A DNA stretch of 64,000 bases from an uncultured Bdellovibrionales bacterium (GTDB lineage Bacteria > Patescibacteriota > Minisyncoccia > Moranbacterales > GWC2-37-73). The translations under genes were made by a program, and so were the position numbers. The DNA lies in the NCBI GenBank assembly GCA_964484505.1, contig CAZAFB010000002.1, positions 9,679-73,678 of the forward strand, given 5' to 3'. This document shows, piece by piece, positions 14,331 to 49,021 of the stretch (position 1 is its first letter; each line of letters starts with the position of its first letter). Below the pieces are notes generated by a model, which was given only the letters and a program-made list of their open reading frames with translations, made no database searches and was not told the DNA's origin.

Positions 14331-14353
14331 TTTTCCGTTGATGCAAATCCTTT

Positions 14354-14496
14354 CTCTATTTTCGTCTTTCCTAAACCACTCTCTTTTTTTCTATCAAACT
14401 CATTTCCTAGAAAATAGTTACATGGATAAATGAAAATGGTTCAAGAAAATGGAAAGAAGAAACATGAATCATTTTTCTATTTTCGTCTTTCCTAAA
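14354..14496. promoter_or_regulatory. Two direct repeats of about 22-60 bp (core ttctattttcgtctttcctaaa at 14354-14375 and 14475-14496) in the 5' leader/promoter region of the giant gene
   Basis: Exact 21/22-bp core repeated 121 bp apart. Both copies are followed by similar T-rich tails (ttttttctatcaaactcatttcc vs ttttcttttttctgcttaacaaatttc). They lie immediately upstream (minus strand) of the start codon at 14330. Confidence 0.4.
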
Positions 14497-14542
14497 ACGA
14501 TTTTCTTTTTTCTGCTTAACAAATTTCTTATTTACTAAAATT

Positions 14543-14983
14543 TCATTCCTTCGGTACAACGTTTATCGATCTTACTTTTTGATTCGTGTCCACATAGATA
14601 TTCAAACTTCCGTCATCATTCTGTTCGATTTGATAGGACCCCTTTATTCCGTTTATTTGCTTACTTTTCTCACTGTTGCGAAAAATCAAAAATCCTCCAA
14701 TCATCAAACCAACCAATAAAATCAAGATTGCCACATAACGCCAAGTCAACCTATTCGCTTTTTCCTTTTCCGTAATTTTTTCCTCAATTATTTCATGTTG
14801 CACTTCAGCTTTGTCCGAGACCCTTTCCAGATATTCCAAAACGTCTTCTCTGGTAACCATCCATTTGCCATCTTTTTTGATCGCTCTGAGACGCTTCTTT
14901 CGTACCAAAAGACCCAGATAATTTGAGTCATATGGGGTCAGCTTTTCAGCCTCTTTAAGTGTGATATATGTCTTTTCCTGCAT
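14543..14983 (-). CDS. Small membrane-anchored DNA-binding protein: N-terminal excisionase/MerR-type helix-turn-helix, central TM helix, C-terminal extracytoplasmic tail
   Basis: ITLKEAEKLTPYDSNYLGLLVRKKRLRAIKKDGKWMVTREDVLEYL resembles HTH_17/excisionase-family DNA-binding domains. It is followed by a hydrophobic stretch WRYVAILILLVGLMIGGFLIF. Confidence 0.55.
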   Translation of the reverse strand: MQEKTYITLKEAEKLTPYDSNYLGLLVRKKRLRAIKKDGKWMVTREDVLEYLERVSDKAEVQHEIIEEKITEKEKANRLTWRYVAILILLVGLMIGGFLIFRNSEKSKQINGIKGSYQIEQNDDGSLNIYVDTNQKVRSINVVPKE

Positions 14984-15086
14984 TTTGCTTTATAAAAGCC
15001 TTTATTTAATTAAATTCAATACTGATTCAATACCCATTCAATACCATATTGGGTACAATTTTCCATGCTCAAATTATACCAAAAAA

Positions 15087-15107
15087 AACGGCTTTTTTAA
15101 AGCCGTT
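15087..15107 (-). terminator. Rho-independent terminator downstream of the LamG giant gene (9-bp stem aacggcttt/aaagccgtt, 3-nt loop, A-run 15081-15086 on plus strand, which is the U-tract on the minus strand)
   Basis: Perfect 9-bp inverted repeat at 15087-15095 / 15099-15107. It is flanked by an A-run on one side and T-rich sequence on the other. Confidence 0.5.
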
Positions 15108-15203
15108 AAACCAAGTTATCCACAGTGAGGGAAACGAATCAAAACGAAACAAATTCACGAATTAAAAACGAATAAAATTGCACGAACATGAAAATTCGTG
15201 TCC

Positions 15204-33300: not shown

Positions 33301-34950
33301 CAATCCCCAAGCACGCACCGTTCCGTCAGTCATAACGCCAAGTGAATGATTTGAACCACTGGCAATTGCCGTTACCCCGCCAAGAAAATCATCACCGGCT
33401 TCATTTAATACTTGTACAGGCGTCGACTTGCTGATTATAGTATTATCACCCAGCTGTCCATTAGCGTTCAAACCCCAAGTCCAAACAGTGCTGTCGGATT
33501 TTAAAGCAATCGCGTGAGACCCTCCTGCCGAAATATTTTGGATACCACTAAGTGTTCCCGCGCCACCAGTTCCAAGGACTTGTACGGGAAGATGTTTGTC
33601 AACAACTGTTCCGTCGCCCAATTGACCGCTTGTGTTCAAACCCCAAGCCCAAACGGTGCCATCTGATTTTAAAGCAAGTGAAAATCTATCTCCCGCAGCT
33701 ATGGCTACAACATCCGTAAAATCGCCAGCACCATCAGAATCCACAACTTTTATGGGAGAATTTTTTTGAGCAACCGTATTATCTCCGAGTTGACCATGAT
33801 CATTATTTCCCCAAGCAAAAACCGTGCCGTCAGCTCTTAGCGCAAGCGAATGAGAACTTCCTGCGCTGACCGCTTCGATCTCCTCGAGATATCCAGCGCC
33901 GCCTTCACCCAAAACTTGCACCGGTGTATAGCGATTGGTAATTGTACTTTCACCAAGTTGCCCATTACCGTTCGCTCCCCATGCCCAGACAGAATCATCC
34001 GCCCTGATTGCCAACACATGGGTTTGACCGGCAGACAATGCCGCAACGCCGGCAAAACTCATTTTGACTCCAGCAGTAGCACCAGCACCAAAAACTTTAG
34101 TATTGGTATTTGTTCCGGAGTTGAAACCGCCTGAGTTATGGGTGTCTTCCTCGCCGGTACTTGATGTTTGCAGTGAAGACTCGGCGGTCCACGCAACCGA
34201 AACATCATTGCCGCCATTGATAATATCCGTATTCGCATCTTTTGCGAAATACTCATTCCAACTTGTCTGGTTAGCTGGATGCGCGGCATAATTGGCAGTC
34301 GCTCCGCCGGACCAGCTGGTTTGCTGCCAAGTATAAGTGGCTCCCTTGGTGTAACTATAATTATTCAAAAAAGCCGTAATGACTATAATAAATATAACCA
34401 AAAAGGAAACAGCTCTTTTGGCAAAAGTTTTTTGAGAAAAAGTTTTTATAAATTTCTTTTTTTCAATTAAACATGCTTGCTGGAATTTTTTTATGAAATT
34501 TTCAAAACTAAAATAACCATCTTTCAAAACCACACTGGCCATTTTTCTCAACAAAGAATCGTTTCTTACCATGCGTGTCGAAAGAGAGTTTCTTGAAATA
34601 GAAAATCGGCTCTTGCTTAGCTTTAATTTTCTTTTTCTTTTTTTCAAAATAAGTTTATCCGGCAAGCTGCGGAAATTTTCAAAAACTTTCCTTGCCTTAT
34701 TTGATGTAAATGCAACTAGCGACAAAATGTTGATGAAGATGTGCGAAACACAAAATGTTGGTTTTTGTCTTCTTGCAATATTATTTCTTTGCTCAATGCG
34801 TCTAAAGCCATCCATTGAACCACGGTGAAAACCGCCCTTCTTCAGAGAGGCATAAGAAATTACTTCACCTGCAATTTTTCTCGTCGATTTTTGTTTTATT
34901 TTTTTCATTCCGGCGCTGAACACCTTGTTTTGAGAGAGAAAAATTATCAT
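27397..34950 (-). CDS. Giant (up to 2517 aa) membrane-anchored surface protein: about 20 RCC1-type beta-propeller repeats followed by about 10 FN3-like repeats; true start probably internal (ATG at 34572 or 34542)
   Basis: Repeated WAWGxNxxGQLGDNTxxxxxxPxQV blades (RCC1 / alpha-tubulin suppressor family). The C-terminal half has repeated PPVISNIQISNVTTTTAQLNWQTD...HSVTLTGLTPGQTYYYQVKSADQYGN FN3-type units. TM helix AVSFLVIFIIVITAFL precedes the repeats. The first roughly 126 codons are basic, low-complexity and lack domain signal. Confidence 0.8.
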   Translation of the reverse strand: MIIFLSQNKVFSAGMKKIKQKSTRKIAGEVISYASLKKGGFHRGSMDGFRRIEQRNNIARRQKPTFCVSHIFINILSLVAFTSNKARKVFENFRSLPDKLILKKRKRKLKLSKSRFSISRNSLSTRMVRNDSLLRKMASVVLKDGYFSFENFIKKFQQACLIEKKKFIKTFSQKTFAKRAVSFLVIFIIVITAFLNNYSYTKGATYTWQQTSWSGGATANYAAHPANQTSWNEYFAKDANTDIINGGNDVSVAWTAESSLQTSSTGEEDTHNSGGFNSGTNTNTKVFGAGATAGVKMSFAGVAALSAGQTHVLAIRADDSVWAWGANGNGQLGESTITNRYTPVQVLGEGGAGYLEEIEAVSAGSSHSLALRADGTVFAWGNNDHGQLGDNTVAQKNSPIKVVDSDGAGDFTDVVAIAAGDRFSLALKSDGTVWAWGLNTSGQLGDGTVVDKHLPVQVLGTGGAGTLSGIQNISAGGSHAIALKSDSTVWTWGLNANGQLGDNTIISKSTPVQVLNEAGDDFLGGVTAIASGSNHSLGVMTDGTVRAWGLNDRGQLGDNTIIEKHLPVQVLDSSGLANLSNIISINGGFKHSLAIDSSGNAWAWGYNGTGQLADNTLVDRYLPSQVMDNLGTGNLANVKFITGGHDNSYAFQNDGTLWTWGDNVSGQLGNNTTTGSRLPLQTWGPASGFLSNVSKIASGYSHTLALKNDGTVWAWGWNGNGQLGDNTTTNRLTPIQVLGSGGSGNLTDVVAIAAGYSHSFALKSDGTVWAWGWNGYGQLGDNSTMNRYTPTQVTDSDGIGYLTDVESIACGNTFTLVVKTDGTVWTWGNNSNGQLGDNTTNMKMIPVQVVGPGGLGYLSGVSKVAGGEKHSLALKDDGTVWSWGYNSNGQLGNNTTQNESAPIQVFDSTGSGYLQNISSISAGYLHSVALMNNGTVWAWGWNGNGQIGNGTIVDAHMPSQVVGAGGSGTLNDVSSVACGNAHTVAMKTDNTVWAWGWNGYGQLGDNSSINKNYPVQALDSAGTGNLSSIGAITAGYGSTASLSTDGNSVWNWGMNNYGQLGTNNYYDKSLPLKVWGAASGTLVLGVTHYNTAGSFSSVVVDTGSIKTYTTMAYLYDAPAGSTVTLDVRAGDNGTPDGTWTSWIVDVSQGGDISSLGQHRYYQYRVNFTTTDDTATPRFQQATISYEYYPSPMTLTSTMYNTSDGANILSKIRWNETVPSGTDVRFQVRTAVHDGSIPGTWTSWMGPDGTGASYFTDKNGGESMPSVLRDGLDDQWIQYRAFLVSDGLSAPNLSDVTMQYVVNAPPELRNVSASQGSNGIVTVNYETRDTDTLSGATPGNVEISLQYCSANCSAAGSETWVDAATVGGNVGAGIAVQEVNWSTYQLTWNPKIDYPQQFNGSNFKVRVKANDSEGANNLGYNSSNVFIIDTKNPTNVAFSIDHTQNLLSLDTPIDDSSYQMMVSNFADFNDTSYQAFQSSYVYGNLTDDPATVYLRIGDAYGNYTDISVTTPAKPLNTIYYDASDVDNDKYRELIVWDVIDGGQSGAGFAKYNIWRSSDGINYGSTPVATNEDRLTNYYLDADLVAETRYYYKITAEDVNGSISAFSNITSDIPDGNGEVSSIPPVISNIQISNVTTTTAQLNWQTDVLANATVGFSTVSGDFTSEIGVTTMGTEHSVTLTGLTPGQTYYYQVKSADQYGNVGIDDSQAPFITDPLDSTPPAISSLNAITTEDAATITWDTDESSNSFVEYSLTQGFPAGLLLGTNDMVTSHSVTLSGLSSSATYYYRVHSRDAMGNEAVSAENNFSTLSGGDDSVAPVISNVAAAVSGADQQTVLVTWDSDEAASSFVEFGPTVAYGRVYGSSDLSTSHSIELPHDLGADNTYQFRVFSQDSSGNTGYSTNDSFATGHDDSDPVISAITVEELASDSALISWHTDKATRSLVLYGTEMPLTNNVNMTNYATDHFVLLSGLNADDSYLFTITATDAYGNAGTSSPGNFTTEKPTEQQHDPLGSIDNVSTPVITDTKAVVSFDTDQEAECTIEFGTQSGNYTEVPVSEATYDKTHSIHLAGLIFETTYYYKVTCQDNLSTTISSDEYSFVTSQQQAGSGGGSGTGDDDIAPKISSIKTSASTGDSVTISWTTDEEANSLVKYGVDSKNMRMEGDNLVNTSVDNFSTSHSVVISGLVPYTKYYYSVVSYDVAGNITESAQSTFATKSPSSLSSIKAVPTSINEATITWSTNQATTSIIEYGLSNSYGEIKESGSYVKNHELVVSGLQPAQTYHFRVKGKDQKGTLYSSSDYTFESKAPPQISNIAVESVTENGAVVKFSTNVPTDALVSYIDQGNPANSGTQGKPDLAISHEVELENLESGVAYNLSVIARDEQSNEAKSQVVTFSTGKDDTAPKIDKIKTENALTQNDKVQSIISWTTNEPATTVLSYKERRNGEEKEIMTEGNSSQTHIVVVTIFKPGTVYYFKVKSKDQSGNESTSGEFALLTPKKKENIVQLIINNFQEIFGWAKIK

Positions 34951-35169: not shown

Positions 35170-37366
<2,197 letters not shown>

Positions 37367-37406
37367 TGAAATTCATAAAATAATAACTTTACAAAACGCA
37401 CTTTTT

Positions 37407-37781
37407 TTATCTTCTTGTTAGGAAATAAAGTTCAACCAATAGCACCCCCGCCACAACCAGCAGTCCATCCCACCAAGTCAACACTCGATAACTCTGCAAT
37501 AACAAAATTATCGCTGCCAAAATAGCAAGCAAAATTCCTTGCCGGAAACCGGTACCCAAAACTACCGCCATGTTTTCCCGATCATGATCTAATTTCAAAC
37601 GTGACCAAGTGAGAAAAAGAATGAATATGCCACTTAGCGCCAGCATCAGACTGCCATAAAACAGTGCCTGCCCTGCCAAACCAGAGACTTCTGGATCGAC
37701 AAAAAACAGTACTGTGGCGAATGCGCCGACAGACAAAAGCGTCCCTATCCTGATCGCCCACAGGTACGTTTTGAGGGTCAT
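37407..37781 (-). CDS. Hypothetical 4-TM membrane protein
   Basis: 124-aa ORF consisting almost entirely of four hydrophobic helices. Confidence 0.4.
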   Translation of the reverse strand: MTLKTYLWAIRIGTLLSVGAFATVLFFVDPEVSGLAGQALFYGSLMLALSGIFILFLTWSRLKLDHDRENMAVVLGTGFRQGILLAILAAIILLLQSYRVLTWWDGLLVVAGVLLVELYFLTRR

Positions 37782-38050
37782 GATTGGTTGTATTATTCGT
37801 TTTTGTTATTTATCCTTCTTTTGTCATTTTAACGCAAAACAAAGCTTCTGGCAAGCAAAAAACAGCATCTGAAATGCTGCATTATTGCGGGGCATTGTGA
37901 ACGACATTAGGATTTTCTTTGAGACAGAGAACAACTTGAACTTTGCTCCCCTCAACAAAGACTAATTTTAAAAACATTCGGAAATACAAAACCCCTCGAT
38001 GGGGGGAGGGGGTCTAAAATATGGGACATAGCCAGAAATGCTTCTTAAAA

Positions 38051-38581
38051 TTACATTAAATCTTTCTCAAATAGGGGTAAAGCATTTAGATATGCTTCTC
38101 TATTTTCATAGAAAGCAGTAGAATTCATAGATTCAAATATTTCTTTCATTTTTTTATCTAAAATCAAATCTGAATTCTTACAATAAAACCATATTTTAAA
38201 CAACTTAATCAGTGGTAAGTTTTCCTGAGTTATACTTTGATATAATTCGCAACAATCATAAATTAAATACTCCGAAAGAACAGCGTCAAATTTTATAGTT
38301 TTATCCTGGTCTTCCCTGTTTGCGTGTTTGAAGAAATTTTTGGCATTATGAAAAACACCATAAATCTCCTTTTGCCTCTCCTTTTTTATATTATTTTTTA
38401 TCCAATCATTTATGGCTGATTCTTTATTCTGTTTTTTGGCAAGGTCATTCAGAATATTGTGCGATGCCCCTGCTAAGGTATGAATAGCCACCACATCTCC
38501 ATATCTAAAAAACAATCTTATTGCGATTTCGAGCTGTCTTTTAGCGGCGTCTATTTTTGAAATATAAATATGATTCGACAT
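38051..38581 (-). CDS. Hypothetical protein (island cargo)
   Basis: 176-aa ORF in an AT-rich region with no recognisable motifs. Confidence 0.4.
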   Translation of the reverse strand: MSNHIYISKIDAAKRQLEIAIRLFFRYGDVVAIHTLAGASHNILNDLAKKQNKESAINDWIKNNIKKERQKEIYGVFHNAKNFFKHANREDQDKTIKFDAVLSEYLIYDCCELYQSITQENLPLIKLFKIWFYCKNSDLILDKKMKEIFESMNSTAFYENREAYLNALPLFEKDLM

Positions 38582-39078
38582 AATTTTTTTAAAGCTATGA
38601 GCGGTGGAAATTCAAATAAGCACTAGCCAAAAATATCAATTGCGACTTTTGAGCCGTTTTTTTTATTGGATTTTCTTTGGGGATACCACTTGGTCAAAGA
38701 ACCATTTATGAGAATACAAACTATAACCCTATACTTGCGTGTGCTTGCATAAGGAAACAGATTTATTCTGCGAAACAAGGTTAGCCTTTAACTTGGTCGA
38801 TGGAATATTGGCACTGTGCGTTATACTCCGAGGTTGAGTTTTCCCCTTCCTATGGCAGGGTTATTCTTTTCAACGTCTTTTTGGGTCAGTGCGGTGAGGT
38901 TCGGCTTTCCAGCCGTCCTCGTTTAGTCGAGGGACTTTTTACAAGAAAGAACTAATTGCCCTCTAAATGGCTTTTGGTTCAGTTATACCCGCATCCTTTC
39001 GGATACTTGTTTCGGTTTCTTTGAAGTCGTTTTTATTATAGCGTGCTTTTATCTAAAGGTAAAAAATATTAGTTGAAA

Positions 39079-39684
39079 TCAAATATTGCCGTAAACCCTG
39101 AGTGCTAAAAATGAAATTCCAAGCAGGGCAATTATTATTTCAGCCACAAAAAGCCTGCTATTTATTTTAGAGTCTGGATTTATTTTTTGATTGTTAAAGT
39201 TTATTGCTTGTTGAATTGCTAACAATGGAAAAATTCTTAAAAATGTAATAAGAAAAACCAGATTATCAGCTCGATTGAAAAGAATAGCAAAAATGTAAAA
39301 AAGATATAGCCCCAATATTGAGAAGTTGGTTTTATATCCTAATTCTTTCGCTGATTTGATAATCCTACCAAACAGGCTATAGCAATAAAAAAGGTTAAAA
39401 ATCGGCAAGGCTCTTATTCCAGCAGACATACTAAAAAATGCTTTTTCTTTTTTTTCTTGAGCAAATATTTTCTGCCAATTTTTGTAAAACCAATAAAAAT
39501 CGTAAAGTCCGAGTGAAATAATAGACATTATGGCTAACTTTATTAGAGATACTGAAAAATATTCTATTGCTGTGGAATTTTTCTTTTCAAGTGATTCCTT
39601 TTCTTCCTTCTGCCATTCTCCACAAAAACGACATTTCGTGGCTTCTGATTGAATTTGTTCTCCGCAAAATTTACAGGTTTTCAT
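39079..39684 (-). CDS. Zinc-ribbon domain membrane protein (island cargo)
   Basis: N-terminal CxxC...CxxC zinc ribbon (MKTCKFCGEQIQSEATKCRFCGEW). Followed by several hydrophobic helices. Confidence 0.45.
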   Translation of the reverse strand: MKTCKFCGEQIQSEATKCRFCGEWQKEEKESLEKKNSTAIEYFSVSLIKLAIMSIISLGLYDFYWFYKNWQKIFAQEKKEKAFFSMSAGIRALPIFNLFYCYSLFGRIIKSAKELGYKTNFSILGLYLFYIFAILFNRADNLVFLITFLRIFPLLAIQQAINFNNQKINPDSKINSRLFVAEIIIALLGISFLALRVYGNI

Positions 39685-39707
39685 TTTTTTTATTAAAATT
39701 ATTTTAG

Positions 39708-40091
39708 TTAATTTCCAAATGGTCGTGGCTCTGGCGGTGGTTCACTTGGGATATTATCTGGAAAATAATCAAATCCAACGCCAGCATAAATATCATCTCC
39801 TCTTTTCCAATTTTCGCATTCCACCTTTAGCCTAATGTAGACAGGATTATCCTTTTTTAAGTAGCAGGCAATTCCCATTGCTTCCATTGTTTTTTTCTTT
39901 TGCTCATTCCATAATCTCGTCTCTTTCCCATCAGAAGTAAAGTATGGCTTATAGGCATATGTGTAAATAATGGGAATGGTTAGAATGCAAATCAACCAAA
40001 TAAACACTAGGCGTGTTTTTTTATCTAGCGTGTTTTTCGATTTAAAAAAGGCGAAAGTCAGCAGAATAATAGCAAAAAATAATGAACCCAT
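39708..40091 (-). CDS. Hypothetical membrane protein (island cargo)
   Basis: 127-aa ORF with two N-terminal TM helices and a Pro-rich C-terminus (PSEPPPEPRPFGN). Confidence 0.4.
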   Translation of the reverse strand: MGSLFFAIILLTFAFFKSKNTLDKKTRLVFIWLICILTIPIIYTYAYKPYFTSDGKETRLWNEQKKKTMEAMGIACYLKKDNPVYIRLKVECENWKRGDDIYAGVGFDYFPDNIPSEPPPEPRPFGN

Positions 40092-40357
40092 ATTTTTAAA
40101 ATTATTTTTTAACCAAACAAAAAAGGACAGCCGAGCTGTTCAACCATAACGTTCATCCCAAGGGAATCCCGATTACGGAACTCGGACTGCCCCTTACTAC
40201 CCACAATCGGGCGTAAAGACACAATCTCCCTTAGGAAATTTAGTTATGGTTGAACACTTATAGCTTACTATAGATAATCAGCAAAAACAAGGACTTCCAA
40301 GATTGCTTCTGAACGTAATTTGGGGTAAATTAAAGATACAGAAATAACAATAAAACT

Positions 40358-41047
40358 ATGGATTTAACACCAGACCAACGAAGAAAATGGGTTATTGAAA
40401 AAATTGTAAATAATTTTAAGAATTATCCCAAAATAAGTAGCAAGACTTGGTATAAAGTCGACACCCAAGAAAGCGACCCCCCACCAGAAACACAAAGAGA
40501 TATTGTTGAAAAAATATTGGAGGTTTTTGAAGCCATAAAAATTTTAAGCAGAAAAGAATCAAGAAGTGGAAAAAAAACCAAAAAAGAGGAAACGAACTGG
40601 TATGACATTGAAATTGTAAGTCCAAAATTTGATGAACTATGTGAAGAATATGGCATAAAATTTGAGAGGCGTATTAACAAAAAAGACTGCTACTATGTGA
40701 GCATACTGGCAACCAGAGTAATCGCATTAAATGATAAATACAGACTTTCAAAACCGAATGTCGAATCAGAAAATGACCATTTTTTTAATTATGTCTTCCA
40801 CAATCCTAATAAGTTGATTTTAAGGGAAGAGATTGAGAGAAATGAGAACGCAACCATAGGAAAAGATTTTCATCACATATTAAATGACCTTGGATTCAGA
40901 AATGAATTACGAAAATTATTTTTTGAAGTTTCTAAAAATGCTGTAAAATTTAGAAATTTCATTCCAAAAAATAGAATGGAAGAATTTGGGATAGATTCAA
41001 ATAAACTTACTAATAATATTTCAAAGCTAAAAAGCATTGGTGAGTAA
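40358..41047 (+). CDS. Hypothetical protein (island cargo)
   Basis: 229-aa ORF, plus strand, preceded by a long non-coding structured region. Confidence 0.4.
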   Translation: MDLTPDQRRKWVIEKIVNNFKNYPKISSKTWYKVDTQESDPPPETQRDIVEKILEVFEAIKILSRKESRSGKKTKKEETNWYDIEIVSPKFDELCEEYGIKFERRINKKDCYYVSILATRVIALNDKYRLSKPNVESENDHFFNYVFHNPNKLILREEIERNENATIGKDFHHILNDLGFRNELRKLFFEVSKNAVKFRNFIPKNRMEEFGIDSNKLTNNISKLKSIGE

Positions 41048-41346
41048 GAAACATTAAGAAGTATTAAGAAATACTATTGAATAATTAAGAAGTAGCAAGA
41101 TTAAAAGGTAAAATATTTTCACTTAAAGTAGGCTAGATATAGTCTACTTTTTTAATTTTCTAAAATTCTATGCAATTGACCGCCGAACAAGTGAATAGCT
41201 ACAGACTTCTGCACAAAAAGCTTTTCGGTGTGGAAATTAGCGAAGACGAAGCCTATGAACAAGGAATGAATCTTGCCTGTTTCTTTGAGTTTCTCTTGAA
41301 ACCCACTGACAGCAACAAGGAAAACTAATTATTAAAAATCAAAAAA

Positions 41347-41652
41347 ATGGAAAACATTAGTCAGGAAAAAATAATTGAAAATCTAAAAAGATGCTCGCAT
41401 TTTGAAAGATGCTCGCAAAATCTTTGCCCGCTTGATTTAGAGCTTTCACTGCGGGTTGGGGCTACACGAGATGAATGCCGTTATATGCGAAGACCTAGGC
41501 AGGTAAAAATTGGCGGTAAGGAATTTGTATCAGGAGGCACTGTTGCTCCAGATGCTGTCCTAAATTTTACGCCTAGCGAGAACTTAGACCGCCTAAACGA
41601 GTCGTCAAAAAAGAGATGGGAAGAACTTAATAAATTAAAGCCAAAAAAATGA
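41347..41652 (+). CDS. Hypothetical Cys-containing small protein (island cargo)
   Basis: 101-aa ORF with CSHFERCSQNLC. Its stop overlaps the start of the next ORF (atga at 41649-41652). Confidence 0.4.
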   Translation: MENISQEKIIENLKRCSHFERCSQNLCPLDLELSLRVGATRDECRYMRRPRQVKIGGKEFVSGGTVAPDAVLNFTPSENLDRLNESSKKRWEELNKLKPKK

Positions 41653-41981
41653 AAATAAACTTCACCGAACTGGAAGTCAGAATTAAAAAGGTTGCCGACA
41701 AAGCCAAGCACCCGAATCTTCTAGCCTATGTAACCGTTATTTTAAGAAATGATACGGGCGACTACCTTTCAATCACTGGCTTCACTGTATGGAAGAGCAA
41801 GTTTGAAAATGGCGGGCTAAATGTTGAAGAGCCAGGCAAACGAGGGTTTAAATATGTTTTATCTGAAAAATCATTCGAGGAAAAATTGAAAAGAGAAATC
41901 TTGGCAAAATATGAATATGCAGAAATTCCAATAGTGGGAGAAAGCCCAAATGATGAAATAAACATTGATGAAATTTTCTGA
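41649..41981 (+). CDS. Hypothetical protein (island cargo), translationally coupled to 41347..41652
   Basis: 110-aa ORF with a 4-nt overlap with the upstream gene. Confidence 0.4.
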   Translation: MKINFTELEVRIKKVADKAKHPNLLAYVTVILRNDTGDYLSITGFTVWKSKFENGGLNVEEPGKRGFKYVLSEKSFEEKLKREILAKYEYAEIPIVGESPNDEINIDEIF

Positions 41982-42102
41982 TTCGTTCGCTTACATTCCC
42001 TATAGTTTATTACTAGATATAATCTATAGTCTTATTTCCCTCTAAATGTAAGAGAAATAAACTAAATTGCTAAACTGAAACTAGAACTACTAAGCAGTTA
42101 TT

Positions 42103-43728
42103 ATGAGCAAAAGAATATCGGACGAGAAAATTAAATACTTTGCCTACATCCGTAAAAGTAGCGATAGGGACGATGCACAGACTTTGAGCTTAAAAGCCCA
42201 AAGACGAGAATTGAAAAGTTTTGCGGAAAAACACAATCTGAAAATCGTGGCTACTTTTGAGGAGTCCGCATCTGCTTATAAAATAGGTCGTCCCCAATTC
42301 AACAAGATGCTTGCGGAAATCGAGAAAGGCAAAGCTAACGCTATCCTGGTTTATCACCTTACCCGTATTGCCAGAAACAGCTTTGATGGTGGCAGGGTAA
42401 TTTATATGATGGACGAGGGGCTTATCAAAGAAATCAAGACACCCGAAAAGGCGTATTGTGCCAGTATTGGAGATGACAAATTTATAATGCAAATTCATTT
42501 CGCTATGGCGAAAAAATCTTCGGACGACACCAGCCAATTCGTGAAACGAGACATTCAAAGCAAAATTCTCAAAGGCGAATACCCAGTTTCCGCACCCATC
42601 GGATATTTGAATTTAGACGAGTTCGGAAGAATAGCTGGAAAGCGTTTTGATAATAAAAAACAAGAGCTAATAGAAAATTGCATCAAGACGGAAAAAAGGA
42701 AACCAAAAAGAATCGAGCAAGACCCGATTTTAGCTCCGATAATCAAAGAACTATTTCAACTTTACGCCAGTGAAAAACATTCGCTGGACAACTTGCGATA
42801 TAAATCACTGGAATTGGGAATCAAGGGGGTTAGAAACGACAATCAACTCACGAAATCGACTCTGGTCAGAATGTTAACAAATCCTATTTATTACGGGGCT
42901 ATACCTTGGAAAGGCGAAATTCACGAGCCAGAACAACTCCCAGAAGAAAGCAGGCATATTCCGATTATTGATAAGAAACTTTTTTCAGAAGTTCAATCTA
43001 TACTCAACAATAAATCCAGACCACGAGGGCAAGTCCATAATTTCGAATACACGGGACTTATGCGATGCGGTGAATGTGGGTCAATGATAACCGCCGAAAC
43101 CAAAAAGGGCTTCATTTATTACCGATGCACGAAGAAACGAGGCATCTGTTCCCAAAAATACCTTCGAGAAGATGAGCTTGAAAAACAACTCCACAACAAT
43201 ATGCTCGAATACATTATCCCCCAGGAATTTGCACAATGGGCTTTGGAAGTTCTAAACACCAATAATGCCAATGAGGACAGGAAAAGGAAAGCTATCTTGC
43301 TTCAACAAAGAAACCAGCTCACACACATTGAGCAACAACTTGGAAACCTCCTCAAGCTTAAAATTTCGCCCAGCAATATGAACGGCGAGCTTATTTCAGA
43401 CGAAGAGTATATAGACCAGAAGAGCGTATTGCTGTCCGAAAAAAAGACCATAAACGAAAAACTTTCTGATATTGAGCAGAATATGGAAAATTGGCTCGAA
43501 CAATGCGAGCAATTCTTTGATTTGGCTGTAAATTGCGAAAAAAAGTGGAATCAGAACAATCCTGGCAACAGAAAAGGAGTTTTTGCTTTTATGTTCGGCT
43601 CGAACAGCCTTTTAATAGACCAAAAAGTCCTATTTAAAGCCAAAAAGCCGTTATTTAAAACAGCTCTTTTAGCTAAATCGTCTAATTGGCGGGAGCGACG
43701 GGACTCGAACCCGCGACCTACTGCGTGA
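42103..43728 (+). CDS. Large serine recombinase (resolvase-type N-terminal catalytic domain, recombinase domain, zinc-ribbon, coiled coil)
   Basis: N-terminal YIRKSS...DAQTLSLKAQ...LVYHLTRIARN (catalytic Ser / resolvase fold). Central recombinase region, CGECGSMITAE...YYRCTKK zinc ribbon and a C-terminal coiled coil. The last 14 codons overlap tRNA-Asp on the opposite strand. Confidence 0.8.
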   Translation: MSKRISDEKIKYFAYIRKSSDRDDAQTLSLKAQRRELKSFAEKHNLKIVATFEESASAYKIGRPQFNKMLAEIEKGKANAILVYHLTRIARNSFDGGRVIYMMDEGLIKEIKTPEKAYCASIGDDKFIMQIHFAMAKKSSDDTSQFVKRDIQSKILKGEYPVSAPIGYLNLDEFGRIAGKRFDNKKQELIENCIKTEKRKPKRIEQDPILAPIIKELFQLYASEKHSLDNLRYKSLELGIKGVRNDNQLTKSTLVRMLTNPIYYGAIPWKGEIHEPEQLPEESRHIPIIDKKLFSEVQSILNNKSRPRGQVHNFEYTGLMRCGECGSMITAETKKGFIYYRCTKKRGICSQKYLREDELEKQLHNNMLEYIIPQEFAQWALEVLNTNNANEDRKRKAILLQQRNQLTHIEQQLGNLLKLKISPSNMNGELISDEEYIDQKSVLLSEKKTINEKLSDIEQNMENWLEQCEQFFDLAVNCEKKWNQNNPGNRKGVFAFMFGSNSLLIDQKVLFKAKKPLFKTALLAKSSNWRERRDSNPRPTA

Positions 43729-43762
43729 CAGGCAGTCGCTCTAACCAGCTGAGCTACGCCCC
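43687..43762 (-). tRNA. tRNA-Asp (anticodon GTC)
   Basis: Reverse complement gives GGGGCGTAGCTCAGCTGGTTAGAGCGACTGCCTGTCACGCAGTAGGTCGCGGGTTCGAGTCCCGTCGCTCCCGCCA. Cloverleaf has anticodon stem ACTGC/GCAGT, loop CTGTCAC, a T-arm GGTTCGAGTCC and an encoded CCA. Confidence 0.85.
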
Positions 43763-43786
43763 CATCATTAACCCCTCACACCTTTG

Positions 43787-43860
43787 TACCAGGGGAGAGA
43801 TTCGAACTCTCGACCCCAGGCTTATGAGTCCTGTGCTCTAACCAACTGAGCTACCCTGGC
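43787..43860 (-). tRNA. tRNA with CAT anticodon (elongator Met, or Ile2/lysidine type)
   Basis: Reverse complement gives GCCAGGGTAGCTCAGTTGGTTAGAGCACAGGACTCATAAGCCTGGGGTCGAGAGTTCGAATCTCTCCCCTGGTA. Anticodon loop CTCATAA, T-arm GAGAGTTCGAATCTCTC, G1-U72 wobble and no encoded CCA. Confidence 0.75.
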
Positions 43861-43893
43861 TCAAAAATGCGAAGGGGTAATTTTTAACTTTGT

Positions 43894-43966
43894 TGCGGGG
43901 GGCGGATTCGAACCGCCGACCTCGTGGTTATGAGCCACGCGAGCTGCCAGACTGCTCCACCCCGCT
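43894..43966 (-). tRNA. Initiator-like tRNA-fMet (CAT)
   Basis: Reverse complement gives AGCGGGGTGGAGCAGTCTGGCAGCTCGCGTGGCTCATAACCACGAGGTCGGCGGTTCGAATCCGCCCCCCGCAA. It closely resembles the E. coli initiator tRNA (CGCGGGGTGGAGCAGCCTGGTAGCTCG.CGGGCTCATAACCCGAAGGTCGTCGGTTCAAATCCGGCCCCCGCAACCA), including the mismatched 1-72 pair. Confidence 0.75.
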
Positions 43967-44087
43967 ATATAAAAATAACGCTTTTTTTCAAGCATTTCCC
44001 ATTATACACCAACTTCCATGACTGTCAATATCAACAGCTCTATAAATTTCCGTATTTTTCCGTAAATTCCAGTATTTTTCTGTACGT

Positions 44088-44636
44088 TTATAAGAATTCC
44101 AGATACCTCAAGAAAGTTTCGAAAGTCTTAATGGTAGATTCAGCCAGATCACGATCCACTTTGAACGTTTCGTCATGCACGATACGGTTACGAACTTCGT
44201 GTACCCGTTGCAAATCATCAGTCATATAATCAAGTTGATCCGGCCTGATTGTAGCCAAACGTTCGCCCATATTGGCACCTTTGTACCCGATTCCCGCCAA
44301 AATCTCATCAGCGATAGCGTCCGCTTCAATTATTGCAACTTTATATTGGGATTCATTTCCATCTCCAAGCCTAGCAATGACTTTGTCCCAACGTTTTTGC
44401 ATTTTACTTTTGGAAGCAAGTGGGATATCCGATCCTCTCATAGTCACGCGATAATTTGCTGTCACTCCGCGCATCATCAAAAGCATCACCAGATTTATAA
44501 ACACGATGATTGTATATGCCATTAAAAATATTTTAATGACAATCAAAATCCAGGAATGAGAAAACCATTCCCAGCCGTTTAATACTGAAAAAAATATCGA
44601 TTCCGCACCTGGTTGATTTGCGCTAGAAAAATCCAT
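44088..44636 (-). CDS. Hypothetical membrane protein
   Basis: 182-aa ORF with an N-terminal hydrophobic region (WILIVIKIFLMAYTIIVFINLVMLLMM) and a soluble C-terminal domain. Confidence 0.4.
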   Translation of the reverse strand: MDFSSANQPGAESIFFSVLNGWEWFSHSWILIVIKIFLMAYTIIVFINLVMLLMMRGVTANYRVTMRGSDIPLASKSKMQKRWDKVIARLGDGNESQYKVAIIEADAIADEILAGIGYKGANMGERLATIRPDQLDYMTDDLQRVHEVRNRIVHDETFKVDRDLAESTIKTFETFLRYLEFL

Positions 44637-44744
44637 ATGTTACGAACTACGAATTTAAATTCTACGAAATACGAATTTTTGCAAATGCACGAAGCCTAAA
44701 ATCTCACACGTTTGTACTTTCGTATTGTTCGTAATTCGTAGAGA

Positions 44745-46208
44745 CTAACTAATTTCGTACGCGTGCACAGCATTCAAAAGCCCTTCTTCATCAAACCACT
44801 TGCCCATCAACTGCCCTCCGATTGGCAATCCGCCAGCTGGCGGATTGCCATCCGTTGGGACTGTGCCGATCGGGAAAGATATGGCTGGCACACCGGCAAG
44901 ATTAGCAGTGATTGTATAAATATCGGACAAATACATCTTGAGAGGATCGTTTGTTTTTTCGCCAAACTTAAATGCGACTTCTGGAGCAGTCGGGGAATAA
45001 ATGAAGTCAACTTTTTTAAATGCTTCTTCAAAATCTTTTCGGATAAGCGCGCGAACCTTCTGCGCCTTAAGATAATAAGCATCATAATATCCGGCGCTGA
45101 GCGCATATGTTCCGAGCATGATACGGCGCTTAACCTCATCACCAAGCCCAATTTTTCTTGTATCCAAATATGTTTCCAAAAGACTGCGAGGAATACCGCT
45201 TTCCGGAACATCGGAATCAACCTGATCATTGACTCGCATGCCATACTTTATTCCATCAAATTTTGCCAAATTGGAACTAACTTCGCTCGTCATGATAATG
45301 TAATACACAGGCAAGGAATATTTCACGTTTGACAAGCTTATAATTTCAACCGTAGCTCCCAATGACTTAAACTTTTCAACCGATTGCTCGAATACTTTTT
45401 TTATATTTTCATCCAACCCCTCCATATATTCCTGCGGGATGCCAATTTTTTTTCCTTTGATTTCTCCGGTTAAATATTCTTCATAACTTTTTTCGGAACT
45501 TTGTGCGGAAGTTGCATCTTTTTTGTCTTCTCCTGCGATAGCACTCAAAACAATAGCAGCATCCTCGGCTGTTTTTGTCAGTGGACCTATCTGATCAAGG
45601 CTCGAGCCCATAGCGATAGCACCATAGCGAGAAACTCTTCCATATGTTGGTTTCAAACCTACTAAACCACAAAAAGACGCAGGCTGACGTATCGACCCTC
45701 CTGTGTCGGTACCGAGTGCCCACACTGCTTCACCAGCAGCTACTGCTGCCGCACTTCCGCCCGAAGATCCTCCTGGTACACGTTCCGTATCGACCGGATT
45801 TTTAGTAACTTTATAGGCACTACTTTCAGTGGAAGAACCCATGGCAAACTCGTCTTGATTAACTTTACCTAAAATGACAGCTCCTCGCTCCTTCAGTTTT
45901 CTGATTACTGTCGCATCATAAGGAGCGATATAATTATCAAGTATTTTCGATCCAGCCGTAGTTCTCACCCCCTCTATGCAAATCATGTCTTTGATTGCCC
46001 CAGGAATTCCTTCCAATAATCCTATTTTTTCTCCACGTGCGATTTTTTCGTCAACAAAGACGGCTTGCTGCATTGCAAGGTCTCTGGTCAATGTTAAATA
46101 TGCTCCAATCTCACCATCCTTTTTTTCAATCGCATCAAAATATTGCTCCGTAAGTTTTACGGATGTTATTTCTTTGTTTATAAGTTTGTTATGAAGTTCT
46201 TTAATCAT
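44745..46208 (-). CDS. gatA: Glutamyl/aspartyl-tRNA amidotransferase subunit A (amidase family)
   Basis: Amidase signature GGSSGGSAAAVAAGEAVWALGTDTGGSIRQPASFCGLVGLKPTYGRVSRYG. Its length and the upstream gatC support the call. The ORF track starts at 46232, but the likely start is MIKELHNKLINKEI (46208). Confidence 0.85.
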   Translation of the reverse strand: MIKELHNKLINKEITSVKLTEQYFDAIEKKDGEIGAYLTLTRDLAMQQAVFVDEKIARGEKIGLLEGIPGAIKDMICIEGVRTTAGSKILDNYIAPYDATVIRKLKERGAVILGKVNQDEFAMGSSTESSAYKVTKNPVDTERVPGGSSGGSAAAVAAGEAVWALGTDTGGSIRQPASFCGLVGLKPTYGRVSRYGAIAMGSSLDQIGPLTKTAEDAAIVLSAIAGEDKKDATSAQSSEKSYEEYLTGEIKGKKIGIPQEYMEGLDENIKKVFEQSVEKFKSLGATVEIISLSNVKYSLPVYYIIMTSEVSSNLAKFDGIKYGMRVNDQVDSDVPESGIPRSLLETYLDTRKIGLGDEVKRRIMLGTYALSAGYYDAYYLKAQKVRALIRKDFEEAFKKVDFIYSPTAPEVAFKFGEKTNDPLKMYLSDIYTITANLAGVPAISFPIGTVPTDGNPPAGGLPIGGQLMGKWFDEEGLLNAVHAYEIS

Positions 46209-46307
46209 TTCGCATGGGCTACAAACATACAAATTTTTACAAAAATACGAAAAGTTGAACGCGAAATTTTGTATTTTTGTAATTTTTTGTAATTTCGTAG
46301 TGATATT

Positions 46308-46595
46308 TTACAACACACTCTTAACCTTAATGTAGCCGTCTTTCGTCTCTGGTGCGTTCTCGAGAATCGCATCCTTGCCGATTGAACCAAAATCTTCAGC
46401 TTCGTCGTGGCGCATACGGTCGGTCATGCCCGTAATGTGCCCTATCGACTCAACATCATCCGTATCCAATTCTTCCAACTGTTTGAAATAATCCAAAATC
46501 GCCGAAAGATCTTTCTGATATGATTCGACATCCGCCTCATGCAAGCCTATACGGGCAAGCGCAGCAATATTTACGATTTCATCACGTGTTAACAT
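46308..46595 (-). CDS. gatC: Glutamyl/aspartyl-tRNA amidotransferase subunit C
   Basis: 95-aa protein MLTRDEIVNIAALARIGLHEADVESYQKDLSAILDYFKQLEELDTDDVE, immediately upstream of gatA. Confidence 0.8.
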   Translation of the reverse strand: MLTRDEIVNIAALARIGLHEADVESYQKDLSAILDYFKQLEELDTDDVESIGHITGMTDRMRHDEAEDFGSIGKDAILENAPETKDGYIKVKSVL

Positions 46596-46640
46596 AAGCT
46601 AAAAAATTTCAAACTTACTTTCAGTAATTCACCAAATTTA

Positions 46641-46750
46641 TAATTCACCTAATTCATCTAATAAAATGTCAAATTCACAAATGTCTAAAGCATGCCCTAT
46701 TTGATTATTTGGAATTTTATTAGGTGAATTAGGCAATTAGGTGAATTTTG
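46641..46750. repeat. Palindromic MITE-like intergenic repeat, copy B (arms taattcacctaattcatctaataaaat / attttattaggtgaattaggcaattaggtgaatt), with an additional partial arm at 46771-46790
   Basis: Same arm sequences as copy A at 37271-37366, with a different internal spacer. It lies between the ligA stop and the gatC start. Confidence 0.7.
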
Positions 46751-46810
46751 AATTCAAAATATGATAAATTGATAATTAGGCGAATTTGTTTAGCAATCAA
46801 ATGTTGCTAA

Positions 46811-49021
<2,211 letters not shown>

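What the first reader, a model, noticed from the sequence alone, without database searches (positions are those of the whole stretch)
43687..43728. Serine recombinase coding sequence runs 42 nt into tRNA-Asp on the opposite strand
The last 14 codons of the recombinase (…WRERRDSNPRPTA*) are encoded by the antisense of the tRNA-Asp 3' half. A recombinase gene whose C-terminus is specified by its own attachment site is a hallmark of site-specific integration into tRNA genes. That is usual for tyrosine integrases and much less so for large serine recombinases. Transcription of the recombinase would also run antisense into the tRNA.
Basis: seen in the sequence. Interest (0 to 1): 0.5.

Follow-up and report, generated by a model that had tools for sequence, protein, structure and literature searches.

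The report
Serine integrase island in tRNA-Asp
A 5.8-kb mobile element has been inserted by a large serine recombinase at the very 3' end of a tRNA-Asp gene in a Moranbacteria (CPR) genome, and because the element's attachment site lies inside the recombinase gene, insertion replaces the enzyme's conserved C-terminal helix with a short tRNA-antisense-encoded tail; this layout is shared by a large, uncharacterised recombinase family.

Summary
The 541-aa large serine recombinase (LSR) ORF 42103-43728(+) ends 42 nt inside tRNA-Asp(GTC) 43687-43763(-).

Seven metagenomic contigs of the same population carry the empty site. They define a 5,802-bp island (37892-43693) flanked only by a 5-bp core, GCGGG (tRNA positions 70-74). 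The tRNA stays intact, and there is no long attB-like repeat.

The reconstructed attP lies inside the LSR gene. The excised form would end ...NWRGIVNDIRIFF..., a tail motif (W-[LR]-x-Φ-Φ-x-x-Φ-R-T-[YF]) found in about 24 of 120 homologs. One of these sits on a circular 9-kb episome, where AlphaFold2 predicts the tail as a confident helix.

Integration replaces this helix with host-tRNA-encoded residues. They number 3-13 depending on the host tRNA, so they are a by-product.

60 of 80 relatives in GTDB genomes also end inside an antisense tRNA (12 isotypes, none in the sense orientation).

In the tRNA-Asp clade the last codons of the LSR also carry, on the opposite strand, a replacement terminator for the tRNA operon (11/12 loci against 3/48 controls).

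tRNA targeting by serine integrases was described in 2020 as essentially unreported. I rate this a new variant of a known kind.

The parts
42103..43728 (+). Large serine recombinase ORF in its integrated form (541 aa). Codons 1-530 are element-encoded and the last 11-12 codons are host tRNA-encoded.
   Evidence: Resolvase, Recombinase, Zn_ribbon_recom. (PHROG 95, integrase); the fold of homolog P0015 matches the SPbeta, Bxb1 and phiC31 integrases.
43687..43728 (.). The reported 42-nt overlap of the LSR ORF with the antisense of the tRNA-Asp 3' half.
43687..43763 (-). tRNA-Asp(GTC). Positions 1-74 are identical to the empty-site gene. The encoded C75-A76 (43688-43687) are supplied by the element; the empty site reads ...G-C-A-A.
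   Evidence: (75 nt in empty sites, 77 nt here).
43689..43693 (.). attR core GCGGG (tRNA C74-G73-C72-C71-C70). The crossover lies within CGGG; the most likely dinucleotide is GG at 43691-43692 (inference).
   Evidence: comparison of attL, attR, attB and the reconstructed attP. attP has one extra G to the left of the core.
37887..37891 (.). attL core GCGGG.
37892..43693 (.). Integrated element, 5,802 bp counting one core copy. It has low GC (0.32-0.37 over most of its length) and is absent from 7 empty-site contigs.
   Evidence: composition. (L085, L087, L089-L093 join window 43685 directly to 37891).
37892..37965 (+). Orphaned native 3' end of the LSR ORF (P' arm). After excision it would be read in frame as G-IVNDIRIFFETENNLNFAPLNKD*, with stop TAA at 37963-37965.
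   Evidence: The motif matches the native tails and the attP of the circular episome L094 and of L134.
43638..43674 (-). Terminator-like hairpin plus U-run on the tRNA strand, 13 nt after the CCA. It is embedded antisense in LSR codons ...AKKPLFKTALLAK. It is read as the element-borne replacement terminator of the tRNA operon.
   Evidence: dG -19.6 kcal/mol, z -2.67. (11/12 tRNA-Asp-clade loci against 3/48 controls). (Fisher p = 1e-8).
37862..37880 (-). Original intrinsic terminator of the tRNA-Met/Met/Asp operon. It begins about 8 nt after the tRNA in the empty site and is now displaced 5.8 kb.
   Evidence: GCAGCATTTCAGATGCTGT followed by TTTTTG. (position in the empty site).
44001..44028 (-). 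Promoter-like site (TTGACA-16-TATAAT, 12/12) upstream of the tRNA operon. It reads towards the LSR gene.
43786..43966 (-). Two tRNA-Met(CAT) genes upstream of tRNA-Asp in the same operon.
38051..41981 (.). Cargo of the element: seven ORFs (176, 201 and 127 aa on the minus strand; 229, 52, 101 and 110 aa on the plus strand). None has a significant Pfam or PHROG function. The 52/101/110-aa trio is syntenic with a related element (L083).
37992..38011 (-). Terminator-like hairpin at the left end of the element, downstream of the leftward cargo genes.

Best explanation
A 5,802-bp integrative element of a Candidatus Moranbacteria (Patescibacteria/CPR) bacterium was inserted by its own large serine recombinase (LSR) into an attB. 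That attB consists of the extreme 3' end of tRNA-Asp (B' arm: acceptor stem and T-arm) plus the downstream spacer (B arm). Strand exchange took place within CGGG at tRNA positions 70-73. As a result the whole tRNA is kept, only 5 bp are shared by attL and attR, and the element supplies the CCA.

The element's attP lies inside the 3' end of the LSR gene. In the free circular form the ORF continues across the core into the P' arm and encodes a conserved C-terminal helix (W-R-x-I-V-x-x-I-R-x-F). On integration that helix-coding segment is carried to the far end of the element (37892-37965). The ORF instead reads into the antisense of the tRNA until the first stop it meets. The tRNA-encoded residues (RERRDSNPRPTA here; 1-11 residues in relatives) are therefore a by-product.

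The last 25 or so codons of the LSR also encode, on the opposite strand, a terminator hairpin. This replaces the displaced terminator of the tRNA operon and shields the element from the strong tRNA promoter.

Shown: the island boundaries, the empty sites, the core, the family-wide tRNA association, the conserved native tail, a circular episomal relative, and the enrichment of the hairpin. Inferred: the exact crossover dinucleotide, that the LSR is the catalyst and is still active, that the hairpin terminates transcription, and any effect of the tail swap.
For: Empty sites: seven contigs join window 43685 to 37891. The gyrB-side flank is 99.2-100% identical. For L091 and L092 the short (about 110-220 nt) tRNA-side flank available is also at least 99% identical.

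The att sites align as expected for a simple crossover in GCGGG. No tRNA-derived repeat exists elsewhere in the window. The LSR is the only recombinase in the island.

A 98%-identical LSR (P0001/L082) sits in a different tRNA-Asp variant. Its DNA identity to the window ends right after TGGCGGG.

Of 120 protein homologs, at least 72 end in tRNA-antisense peptides and 24 carry the native motif. Of 80 genome loci, 60 overlap an antisense tRNA and none a sense tRNA, across 12 isotypes.

P0015 (59% identity, native tail) lies on a circular 9,042-bp contig with a 123-nt terminal overlap, and a circularly permuted second assembly exists. Its attP DNA aligns with the attP reconstructed from the window. 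L134/L137 (LSR only 31-38% identical) share nearly the same attP core and P' arm.

The Arg codon of the tail motif is AGG, AGA or CGA in the three attPs, which indicates constraint at the protein level. AlphaFold2 of P0015 gives the tail as helix 528-543 with pLDDT of about 85.

Homologs ending WRE* and WRS* are also in tRNA-Asp; their stop comes from the acceptor stem.

Terminator evidence. Host identity: GyrB is 82-85% identical to named Moranbacteria MAG proteins.
Against: The circular (attP) form of this particular element was not found in the viral or metagenome contig collections, so excision is not demonstrated.

The occupied/empty polymorphism could reflect a single integration followed by vertical spread.

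The far-end P' arm could not be located in the other tRNA-Asp-clade loci within the flanks available. The tail swap is therefore reconstructed directly only for this element.

The tool's own terminator scan did not list the 43638-43674 hairpin; it was found with my own scanner and RNAfold.

The episomal relatives L094 and L134 lack a clear hairpin plus T-run at the equivalent place (read).

No biochemical evidence exists for any member of this clade. The nearest characterised phage and plasmid LSRs are at most 29% identical.
Confidence: 0.88

Rival explanations
1. The tail swap is a built-in state sensor. The native C-terminal helix is needed for attP x attB synapsis, or for autoinhibition or stability. 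Replacing it with a tRNA-encoded or truncated tail changes the activity, directionality or half-life of the integrated-form enzyme. Function would then depend on integration state, as in integration-dependent immunity. This extends the best explanation rather than excluding it.
For: The native tail motif is conserved in LSRs down to about 31-40% identity, with synonymous Arg codons. It is predicted as a confident helix. Integration always removes it, whatever the host tRNA. The orphaned tail-coding segment at attL is intact and in frame for restoration.
Against: There are no functional data. Conservation of the P' arm could be partly a DNA-level (attP recognition) constraint: L134 and the window share 20 of 24 nt there, although their proteins are under 40% identical. 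Distant clade members (L022, L043, L046) show no recognisable native motif in the reconstructed attP form.
Confidence: 0.3
2. The overlap is a fortuitous ORF extension with no relation to integration. The LSR gene merely happens to lie next to a tRNA, and its true stop is missing.
For: 13 stop-free codons are expected by chance about half the time. The length of the extension varies among homologs.
Against: The empty sites place the element boundary at the W-R codons. 60 of 80 relatives show the same arrangement in a strictly antisense orientation. Identity between near-identical elements breaks exactly at the core.
Confidence: 0.02
3. The tRNA-antisense peptide (RxRxDSNPRPxA) is itself a selected, functional C-terminal module of the recombinase.
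For: At first sight it looks conserved in most homologs.
Against: Its conservation is explained by tRNA sequence conservation. Homologs with 54-64% identity in tRNA-Asp genes with a stop in the acceptor stem lack it entirely (WRE*, WRS*, WRG*). It is host-encoded, not element-encoded.
Confidence: 0.03
4. The island is a decaying remnant that can no longer move. The LSR in its integrated, tail-less form is inactive, and the occupied/empty polymorphism is ancestral.
For: No circular form of this element was found. The cargo has no recognisable replication or transfer genes.
Against: The LSR ORF, the orphaned tail segment and both att cores are intact. A 98%-identical LSR occurs in a different host tRNA-Asp variant, which indicates recent horizontal movement. 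Independent assemblies break exactly at the att junctions, as expected for mixed occupied and empty populations.
Confidence: 0.1

Closest known systems
Phage and ICE large serine integrases (phiC31, Bxb1, SPbeta SprA, A118/LI Int, TP901-1)
   Same: Same domain architecture: Resolvase, Recombinase and Zn-ribbon domains plus a long coiled coil. Full-length fold matches to the SprA, Bxb1 and phiC31 complexes. The shared att core is very short, 5 bp here against 2-8 bp typically (PMC8092301 gives 5-8 bp for Int-S systems). The int gene is adjacent to the att site.
   Different: At most 29% identity to any LSR in cultured phages or plasmids. The target is the 3' end of a tRNA gene and is not disrupted, whereas characterised LSRs integrate in and usually disrupt protein-coding genes (PMC8092301; PMC7192596). 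attP lies inside the integrase ORF, so the C-terminus changes on integration. I do not know of a described LSR with that layout, and two full-text searches found none.
Tyrosine-integrase genomic islands and prophages in tRNA genes (P4, HP1, Islander-type)
   Same: Integration is at the 3' end of a tRNA gene and the tRNA is preserved. The int gene sits next to the tRNA-proximal junction. The element supplies the sequence downstream of the crossover, here the CCA, a trailer and a terminator.
   Different: The enzyme family and mechanism differ. There is no 15-70-bp duplication of the tRNA 3' segment, only 5 bp. Some distant members of this LSR family do carry 15-18-bp repeats.
Integration-dependent immunity of mycobacteriophages (attP inside the repressor gene), as summarised in PMC8092301
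   Same: attP lies within a coding sequence, so integration changes the C-terminus of the encoded protein. A stop codon near attL or attR defines the prophage-form product.
   Different: There the affected gene is the repressor, and a degradation tag is removed, with a tyrosine integrase. Here it is the serine integrase's own gene, and no functional consequence has been shown.
SSV-type archaeal tyrosine integrases (attP within the int gene; review PMC8371274)
   Same: The integrase gene contains its own attP, targets a tRNA gene, and is altered by integration.
   Different: SSV-type integration splits the int gene into two large parts. Here only the last 25 or so codons are exchanged, and the enzyme is a serine recombinase in bacteria.
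Sporadic predictions of serine integrases at tRNA genes (TIGER: 14 of 297 S-Int islands, PMC7192596; Paracoccus phage vB_PamS_Pami6 at tRNA-Met, PMC6536676)
   Same: A serine recombinase is associated with a tRNA attB.
   Different: Those are isolated, unverified cases ('experimental proof will be required'). Here a whole clade, with hundreds of members mostly in Patescibacteria, shows the association with a fixed geometry, and for this element precise empty sites are available.

Membership tests
Large serine recombinase (serine integrase) | N-terminal resolvase catalytic domain followed by a Recombinase domain and a zinc-ribbon domain | tested here: met
   Pfam PF00239 (5e-19), PF07508 (9e-15) and PF13408 (2e-11). 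PHROG 95 'integrase', 4e-67.
Large serine recombinase (serine integrase) | Coiled-coil insertion in the zinc-ribbon domain and an overall LSR fold | tested here: met
   The AlphaFold2 model of homolog P0015 has long helices 376-423 and 435-486 after the Zn ribbon. Foldseek top hits are the SprA, Bxb1 and phiC31 integrase complexes, E 8e-19 to 9e-13. This was tested on the homolog, not on the window protein itself.
Large serine recombinase (serine integrase) | Simple attP x attB recombination with a very short identical core and no long flanking direct repeats | tested here: met
   5-bp core GCGGG at attL and attR, a single copy in the empty site, and no other repeat.
Large serine recombinase (serine integrase) | Catalysis through a phosphoserine intermediate with a 2-bp staggered cut | not testable with these tools
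   Residues invariant in the alignment include R17/S19 and R88/R91. There is no biochemistry.
tRNA-targeting genomic island of the tyrosine-integrase (Islander) type | Tyrosine (Phage_integrase) recombinase | tested here: not met
   No Phage_integrase domain is found in any island ORF.
tRNA-targeting genomic island of the tyrosine-integrase (Islander) type | The island is flanked by the intact tRNA and a displaced copy of its 3' segment (tens of bp) | tested here: not met
   No match to the tRNA 3' half was found elsewhere. Only GCGGG is shared.
tRNA-targeting genomic island of the tyrosine-integrase (Islander) type | Integration at the 3' side of a tRNA gene with tRNA function preserved | tested here: met
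   tRNA positions 1-74 are identical in occupied and empty sites.
Prophage | Virion structural, packaging or lysis genes | tested here: not met
   PHROGs and Pfam give no functional hits for the seven cargo ORFs. The LSR family is nearly absent from IMG/VR: 5 weak loci.
Integration-dependent C-terminal switching (attP inside an ORF) | attP core lies within a coding sequence, so the free and integrated forms encode different C-termini | tested here: met
   Reconstructed attP-form ORF ...NWRGIVNDIRIFFETENNLNFAPLNKD* against the integrated ...NWRERRDSNPRPTA*. An episomal relative carries the native-type tail on a circular contig.
Integration-dependent C-terminal switching (attP inside an ORF) | The two protein forms differ in activity or stability | not testable with these tools
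   Only indirect support: the native tail is conserved and predicted as a helix.

The most novel reading that the evidence does not exclude
A large, mostly Patescibacterial clade of serine integrases has evolved to use the 3' ends of tRNA genes as attB, with attP embedded in the integrase's own last codons. Integration therefore does three things at once. It removes a conserved C-terminal helix of the enzyme, which could act as a self-contained switch of directionality, activity or stability that reports integration state. It rebuilds the tRNA 3' end. And it installs a terminator, encoded antisense within the integrase ORF, that insulates the element from the tRNA promoter. If the helix swap controls directionality, this would be an integration/excision switch in serine integrases that does not depend on a separate directionality factor (RDF).
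Probability: 0.3. Interest if true: 0.8.

Novelty: new variant of a known kind. Interest (0 to 1): 0.62.

Why it matters
Textbook practice assigns tRNA-gene integration to tyrosine integrases. A 2020 survey called serine-integrase use of tRNA genes unreported and in need of proof (PMC7192596).

This window provides a clean, boundary-resolved case with attL, attR, attB and a reconstructed attP. It also exposes a whole family with the same geometry across at least 12 tRNA isotypes, mainly in CPR bacteria whose mobile elements are poorly known.

Three things follow:
1. Serine integrases whose attB is a universally conserved tRNA 3' end would be attractive genome-engineering tools for organisms without genetic systems. 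They could also be used to mine natural landing pads.
2. An attP inside the integrase ORF creates two protein isoforms tied to integration state. That makes a directly testable hypothesis about how directionality is controlled.
3. The antisense terminator within a coding sequence is a compact example of dual coding that preserves host tRNA expression.

Tried and rejected
1. I searched for a displaced copy of the tRNA-Asp 3' half in the window, first with up to 3 mismatches over 42 nt and then by local alignment. Nothing was found. This is later explained by the crossover lying at the extreme 3' end.

2. I searched for the element's own attP junction in IMG/VR and in JGI metagenome contigs with a degenerate 20-mer. 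The window's circle was not found. Only 3 of 42 hits were real (L110, which is L094, plus L134 and L137). The rest had no LSR and are taken as chance matches.

3. My first look-up of the flanking membrane protein used the wrong end coordinates and found nothing. It was corrected.

4. I tried to locate the far-end P' arm in nine other tRNA-Asp-clade loci by peptide motif and by fuzzy DNA match. None was found within the available flanks.

5. My initial idea was that the 'WLxxLxxIRTY' tails are tRNA antisense read in another frame. I rejected it: those tails occur on an episome without any tRNA and align as a protein motif.

6. Functional annotation of the cargo ORFs with Pfam and PHROGs gave nothing significant.

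7. The viral-contig scan for relatives gave only 5 weak loci. Phage and plasmid tblastn gave at most 29% identity.

8. I inspected dyad symmetry of the att arms by eye. Both P arms carry a recurring CTAA(A)T-TCGT-like motif, but this was not analysed rigorously and is not claimed.
Full report
OBSERVATION

ARAGORN places tRNA-Asp(GTC) at 43687-43763 on the minus strand, followed by two tRNA-Met genes. Rfam confirms all three. The plus-strand ORF 42103-43728 is 541 aa and ends ...SSNWRERRDSNPRPTA*. It has the three Pfam domains of a large serine recombinase (LSR): Resolvase, Recombinase and Zn_ribbon_recom.

The overlap is exactly the 42 nt reported. TGG (Trp529) is the antisense of the CCA end. 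The stop TGA is the complement of tRNA positions 37-35 (sequence). An independent Logan assembly carries the identical ORF.

THE ISLAND AND ITS EXACT BOUNDARIES

The block from about 37.8 to 42 kb has 32-37% GC against about 41-46% around it, with reversed skews. It lies between a small membrane-protein gene and gyrB on one side and the LSR on the other.

An exact-sequence look-up of that membrane protein returned the window's own contig (JGI Ga0248167_1000297) and several contigs from other samples. In those contigs ligA-gatC-gatA-ORF182-tRNAMet-tRNAMet-tRNAAsp is followed directly by the membrane-protein gene and gyrB. BLAST shows that seven such contigs join window position 43685 to 37891. 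The gyrB-side flank is 99.2-100% identical. For L091 and L092 the short (about 110-220 nt) tRNA-side flank available is also at least 99% identical.

The four att sites, in window orientation:
- Empty site (attB): ...gctgcattattGCGGGagcgacgggactcgaa...
- attL: ...gctgcattattGCGGGgcattgtgaacgac... (core at 37887-37891)
- attR: ...aaatcgtctaattgGCGGGagcgacggg... (core at 43689-43693)

The element is therefore 5,802 bp and is flanked only by GCGGG, which is the complement of tRNA positions C70-C74. This explains why no copy of the tRNA 3' half exists elsewhere in the window.

attP has one extra G to the left of the core (ATTGGCGGG against ATTGCGGG in attB). That confines the exchange to CGGG. A non-palindromic GG (43691-43692, tRNA C72-C71) is the most plausible crossover, but this is inference.

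The tRNA is 75 nt without an encoded CCA in the empty sites (...G-C-A-A) and 77 nt with CCA in the occupied site. The element supplies the CA.

Host GyrB is 82-85% identical to proteins of named Candidatus Moranbacteria MAGs.

attP LIES INSIDE THE RECOMBINASE GENE

Joining the right end of the island to its left end reconstructs attP. It also reconstructs an ORF ending ...KSSNWRGIVNDIRIFFETENNLNFAPLNKD*, with its stop at 37963-37965. Several lines show that this is not an arbitrary read-through.

(i) Among the 120 best homologs, 24 end with the same motif, W-[LR]-x-[ILV]-[LV]-x-x-[IVF]-R-T-[YF].

(ii) One of them, P0015 (59% identical), lies on a 9,042-bp circular contig. That contig has a 123-nt terminal overlap, and a second assembly is a circular permutation of it. 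It carries a type III restriction-modification system and no tRNA. Its attP DNA (cgatTGGCGGGACATCTTGGACGTTATTCGA) aligns with the attP reconstructed from the window (taatTGGCGGGGCATTGTGAACGACATTAGG).

(iii) A degenerate attP probe recovered a further element in metagenomes (L134/L137). Its LSR is only 31-38% identical, yet it has nearly the same core and P' arm and the tail ENWRDIVNDVRTII....

(iv) The motif's Arg is encoded AGG, AGA or CGA in the three attPs, which argues for constraint at the protein level.

(v) AlphaFold2 models the tail of P0015 as helix 528-543 with pLDDT of about 85. The whole model matches the SPbeta SprA, Bxb1 and phiC31 integrase structures.

THE tRNA-ENCODED TAIL IS A BY-PRODUCT

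A 98%-identical LSR (P0001, contig L082) sits in a different tRNA-Asp variant. Its DNA identity to the window ends right after TGGCGGG, and its tail becomes WRGRPGSNR*.

Homologs P0029 and P0017 (55-60% identical) are also in tRNA-Asp, but they stop after WRE* and WRS*, because those acceptor stems contain TGA.

So the number of tRNA-encoded residues after the W-R codons (1 to 11) depends on the host. What is constant is the loss of the native helix.

THE FAMILY

Of 80 relatives in GTDB representative genomes (62-33% identity), 60 have the ORF's 3' end overlapping a tRNA gene on the opposite strand and none on the same strand. The hosts are mostly Patescibacteria, with some Omnitrophota, Elusimicrobiota, Planctomycetota and Verrucomicrobiota. 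The tRNAs are Ser, Gln, Asp, Asn, Arg, Glu, Gly, Leu, Lys, Tyr, Val and Ala. Most of the remaining 20 loci run off a contig end at that point or have tRNA-like tails that ARAGORN missed.

In three distant members, a 15-18-bp copy of the tRNA 3' terminus lies 3.3-9.1 kb upstream, next to what looks like the original terminator. In those members the crossover is deeper in the tRNA, and the element carries a replacement 3' end.

Related tRNA-Asp elements carry primase-like (Zn_ribbon_DnaG) and AAA_25 helicase-like genes. The window's element has seven ORFs with no recognisable function. The family is nearly absent from IMG/VR. It is at most 29% identical to any LSR in cultured phages or plasmids.

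A TERMINATOR HIDDEN IN THE LAST CODONS

The tRNA operon has a perfect -35/-10 promoter-like site at 44028-44001(-). In the empty site, an intrinsic terminator (37880-37862) begins about 8 nt after tRNA-Asp. Integration displaces it by 5.8 kb.

In the occupied site, the tRNA strand reads CCA, then 13 nt, then a hairpin at 43674-43638 (dG -19.6 kcal/mol, z -2.67), followed by a U-run. This lies antisense within codons ...AKKPLFKTALLAK.

I wrote a simple scanner for a hairpin followed by a T-run. It finds such a structure within 70 nt of the tRNA 3' end in 11 of 12 tRNA-Asp-clade loci, with different stem sequences (for example GACCGTTC-GAAA-GAACGGTC, AGGGGT-AGCA-ACCCCT, AGAAGACGC-GAAA-GCGTCTT). 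The rate in control windows deeper in the same ORFs is 3 of 48 (Fisher p = 1e-8). In the other isotype clades it is 5 of 52.

I read this as an element-borne replacement terminator. It would keep the tRNA transcript short and shield the element from the tRNA promoter. That it functions as a terminator is inferred, not shown. The tool's own scan did not list it.

COMPARISON WITH WHAT IS KNOWN

By domains, fold and short core this is a large serine integrase. It behaves like tyrosine-integrase tRNA islands in its choice of target and in preserving the tRNA, but it fails their defining features: it has no Y-integrase and no long duplication.

Mageeney et al. [quoted passage not shown] They found 14 of 297 candidate cases and say that 'experimental proof will be required'. 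A single Paracoccus phage with a serine recombinase was predicted at tRNA-Met (PMC6536676). Mycobacterial Int-S prophages all disrupt ORFs (PMC8092301).

The closest analogues for an attP inside a coding sequence are the integration-dependent immunity systems of mycobacteriophages, where the repressor gene is affected (summarised in PMC8092301), and the SSV-type archaeal tyrosine integrases (PMC8371274). Full-text searches found no description of an LSR with attP in its own ORF, nor of this Patescibacterial clade. The library is incomplete, so absence of a hit is not proof.

VERDICT

Its core interpretation, that the recombinase C-terminus is specified by its attachment site in a tRNA and that this is unusual for serine integrases, is right in substance. 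It is wrong in expecting a tRNA-derived repeat at the far end and in treating the tRNA-encoded tail as a property of the protein.

The finding is a boundary-resolved example of a large, undescribed tRNA-targeting LSR clade with an attP embedded in the ORF and, in the tRNA-Asp clade, a dual-coded terminator. I rate it a new variant of a known kind, with interest about 0.6.

Noticed in passing
window 37316-37394 and 46697-46775: A 79-nt direct repeat (82% identity) lies just upstream of gyrB and just upstream of gatC. It is rich in AATTAGG(C/T)-like units. It may be a shared promoter or regulatory region, or a small repeat element. The Logan contig L001/L086 breaks at about 37267, next to it.
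   Followed up: no
window 43685-47210 against 35245-37891, compared with L085, L087, L089 and L090: In four empty-site contigs the gyrB-side flank is 99.5-100% identical to the window, but the tRNA/gatA-side flank is only 95.8-96.3% identical. The att site coincides with a sharp change in divergence. This suggests homologous recombination or hitch-hiking around the island, or different strain backgrounds.
   Followed up: partly
L088 start (window 37891); L001/L086 ends (window about 37267 and 43747): Independent assemblies break exactly at or next to the att junctions. This is expected if occupied and empty alleles coexist in those samples.
   Followed up: partly
L094/L095 (P0015 element): The episomal relative is a 9.04-kb circle. 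It carries a type III restriction-modification system (N6_N4_Mtase + ResIII/HI_1054) together with the LSR and small ORFs, so it is a mobile defence cassette on an integrative mini-element.
   Followed up: partly
window 43687-43689 and empty site L085 9895-9898: tRNA-Asp encodes its CCA only after integration. The neighbouring tRNA-Met genes also lack an encoded CCA. In many bacteria an encoded CCA blocks RNase Z, so integration may change the 3'-maturation route of tRNA-Asp. This rests on my own knowledge and was not tested.
   Followed up: no
window 41170-41981; L083 130-940: Three small ORFs (52, 101 and 110 aa) immediately upstream of the LSR are syntenic in the 88%-identical element and have no family assignment. 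They are candidates for a regulator or a recombination directionality factor.
   Followed up: no
L043 7976-11509; L046 7738-11086; L022 2365-11482: Distant family members appear to form very small elements (3.3-3.5 kb, little more than the LSR) or a 9.1-kb element. These are flanked by 15-18-bp repeats of the tRNA 3' terminus. So crossover depth varies within the family.
   Followed up: partly
window 27397-34950 and about 3000-19000: A 2,517-aa ORF has RCC1/WD40_RLD repeats (168-nt period). Further upstream there are long repeat-rich coding regions (repeat families D1-D12). These are probably giant surface proteins typical of CPR genomes.
   Followed up: no
GyrB homologs P0129, P0209, P0210: Some closely related Moranbacteria GyrB proteins are about 1,130 aa and carry an intein-type domain (PF14890). 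The window's GyrB (710 aa) does not.
   Followed up: no
window 43647-43664 and the equivalent positions in L002, L143 and L144: The near-invariant protein motif (A/E)KKPFF near the LSR C-terminus coincides with the A-run and stem of the antisense terminator. The amino-acid conservation there may partly reflect the RNA structure on the other strand.
   Followed up: partly
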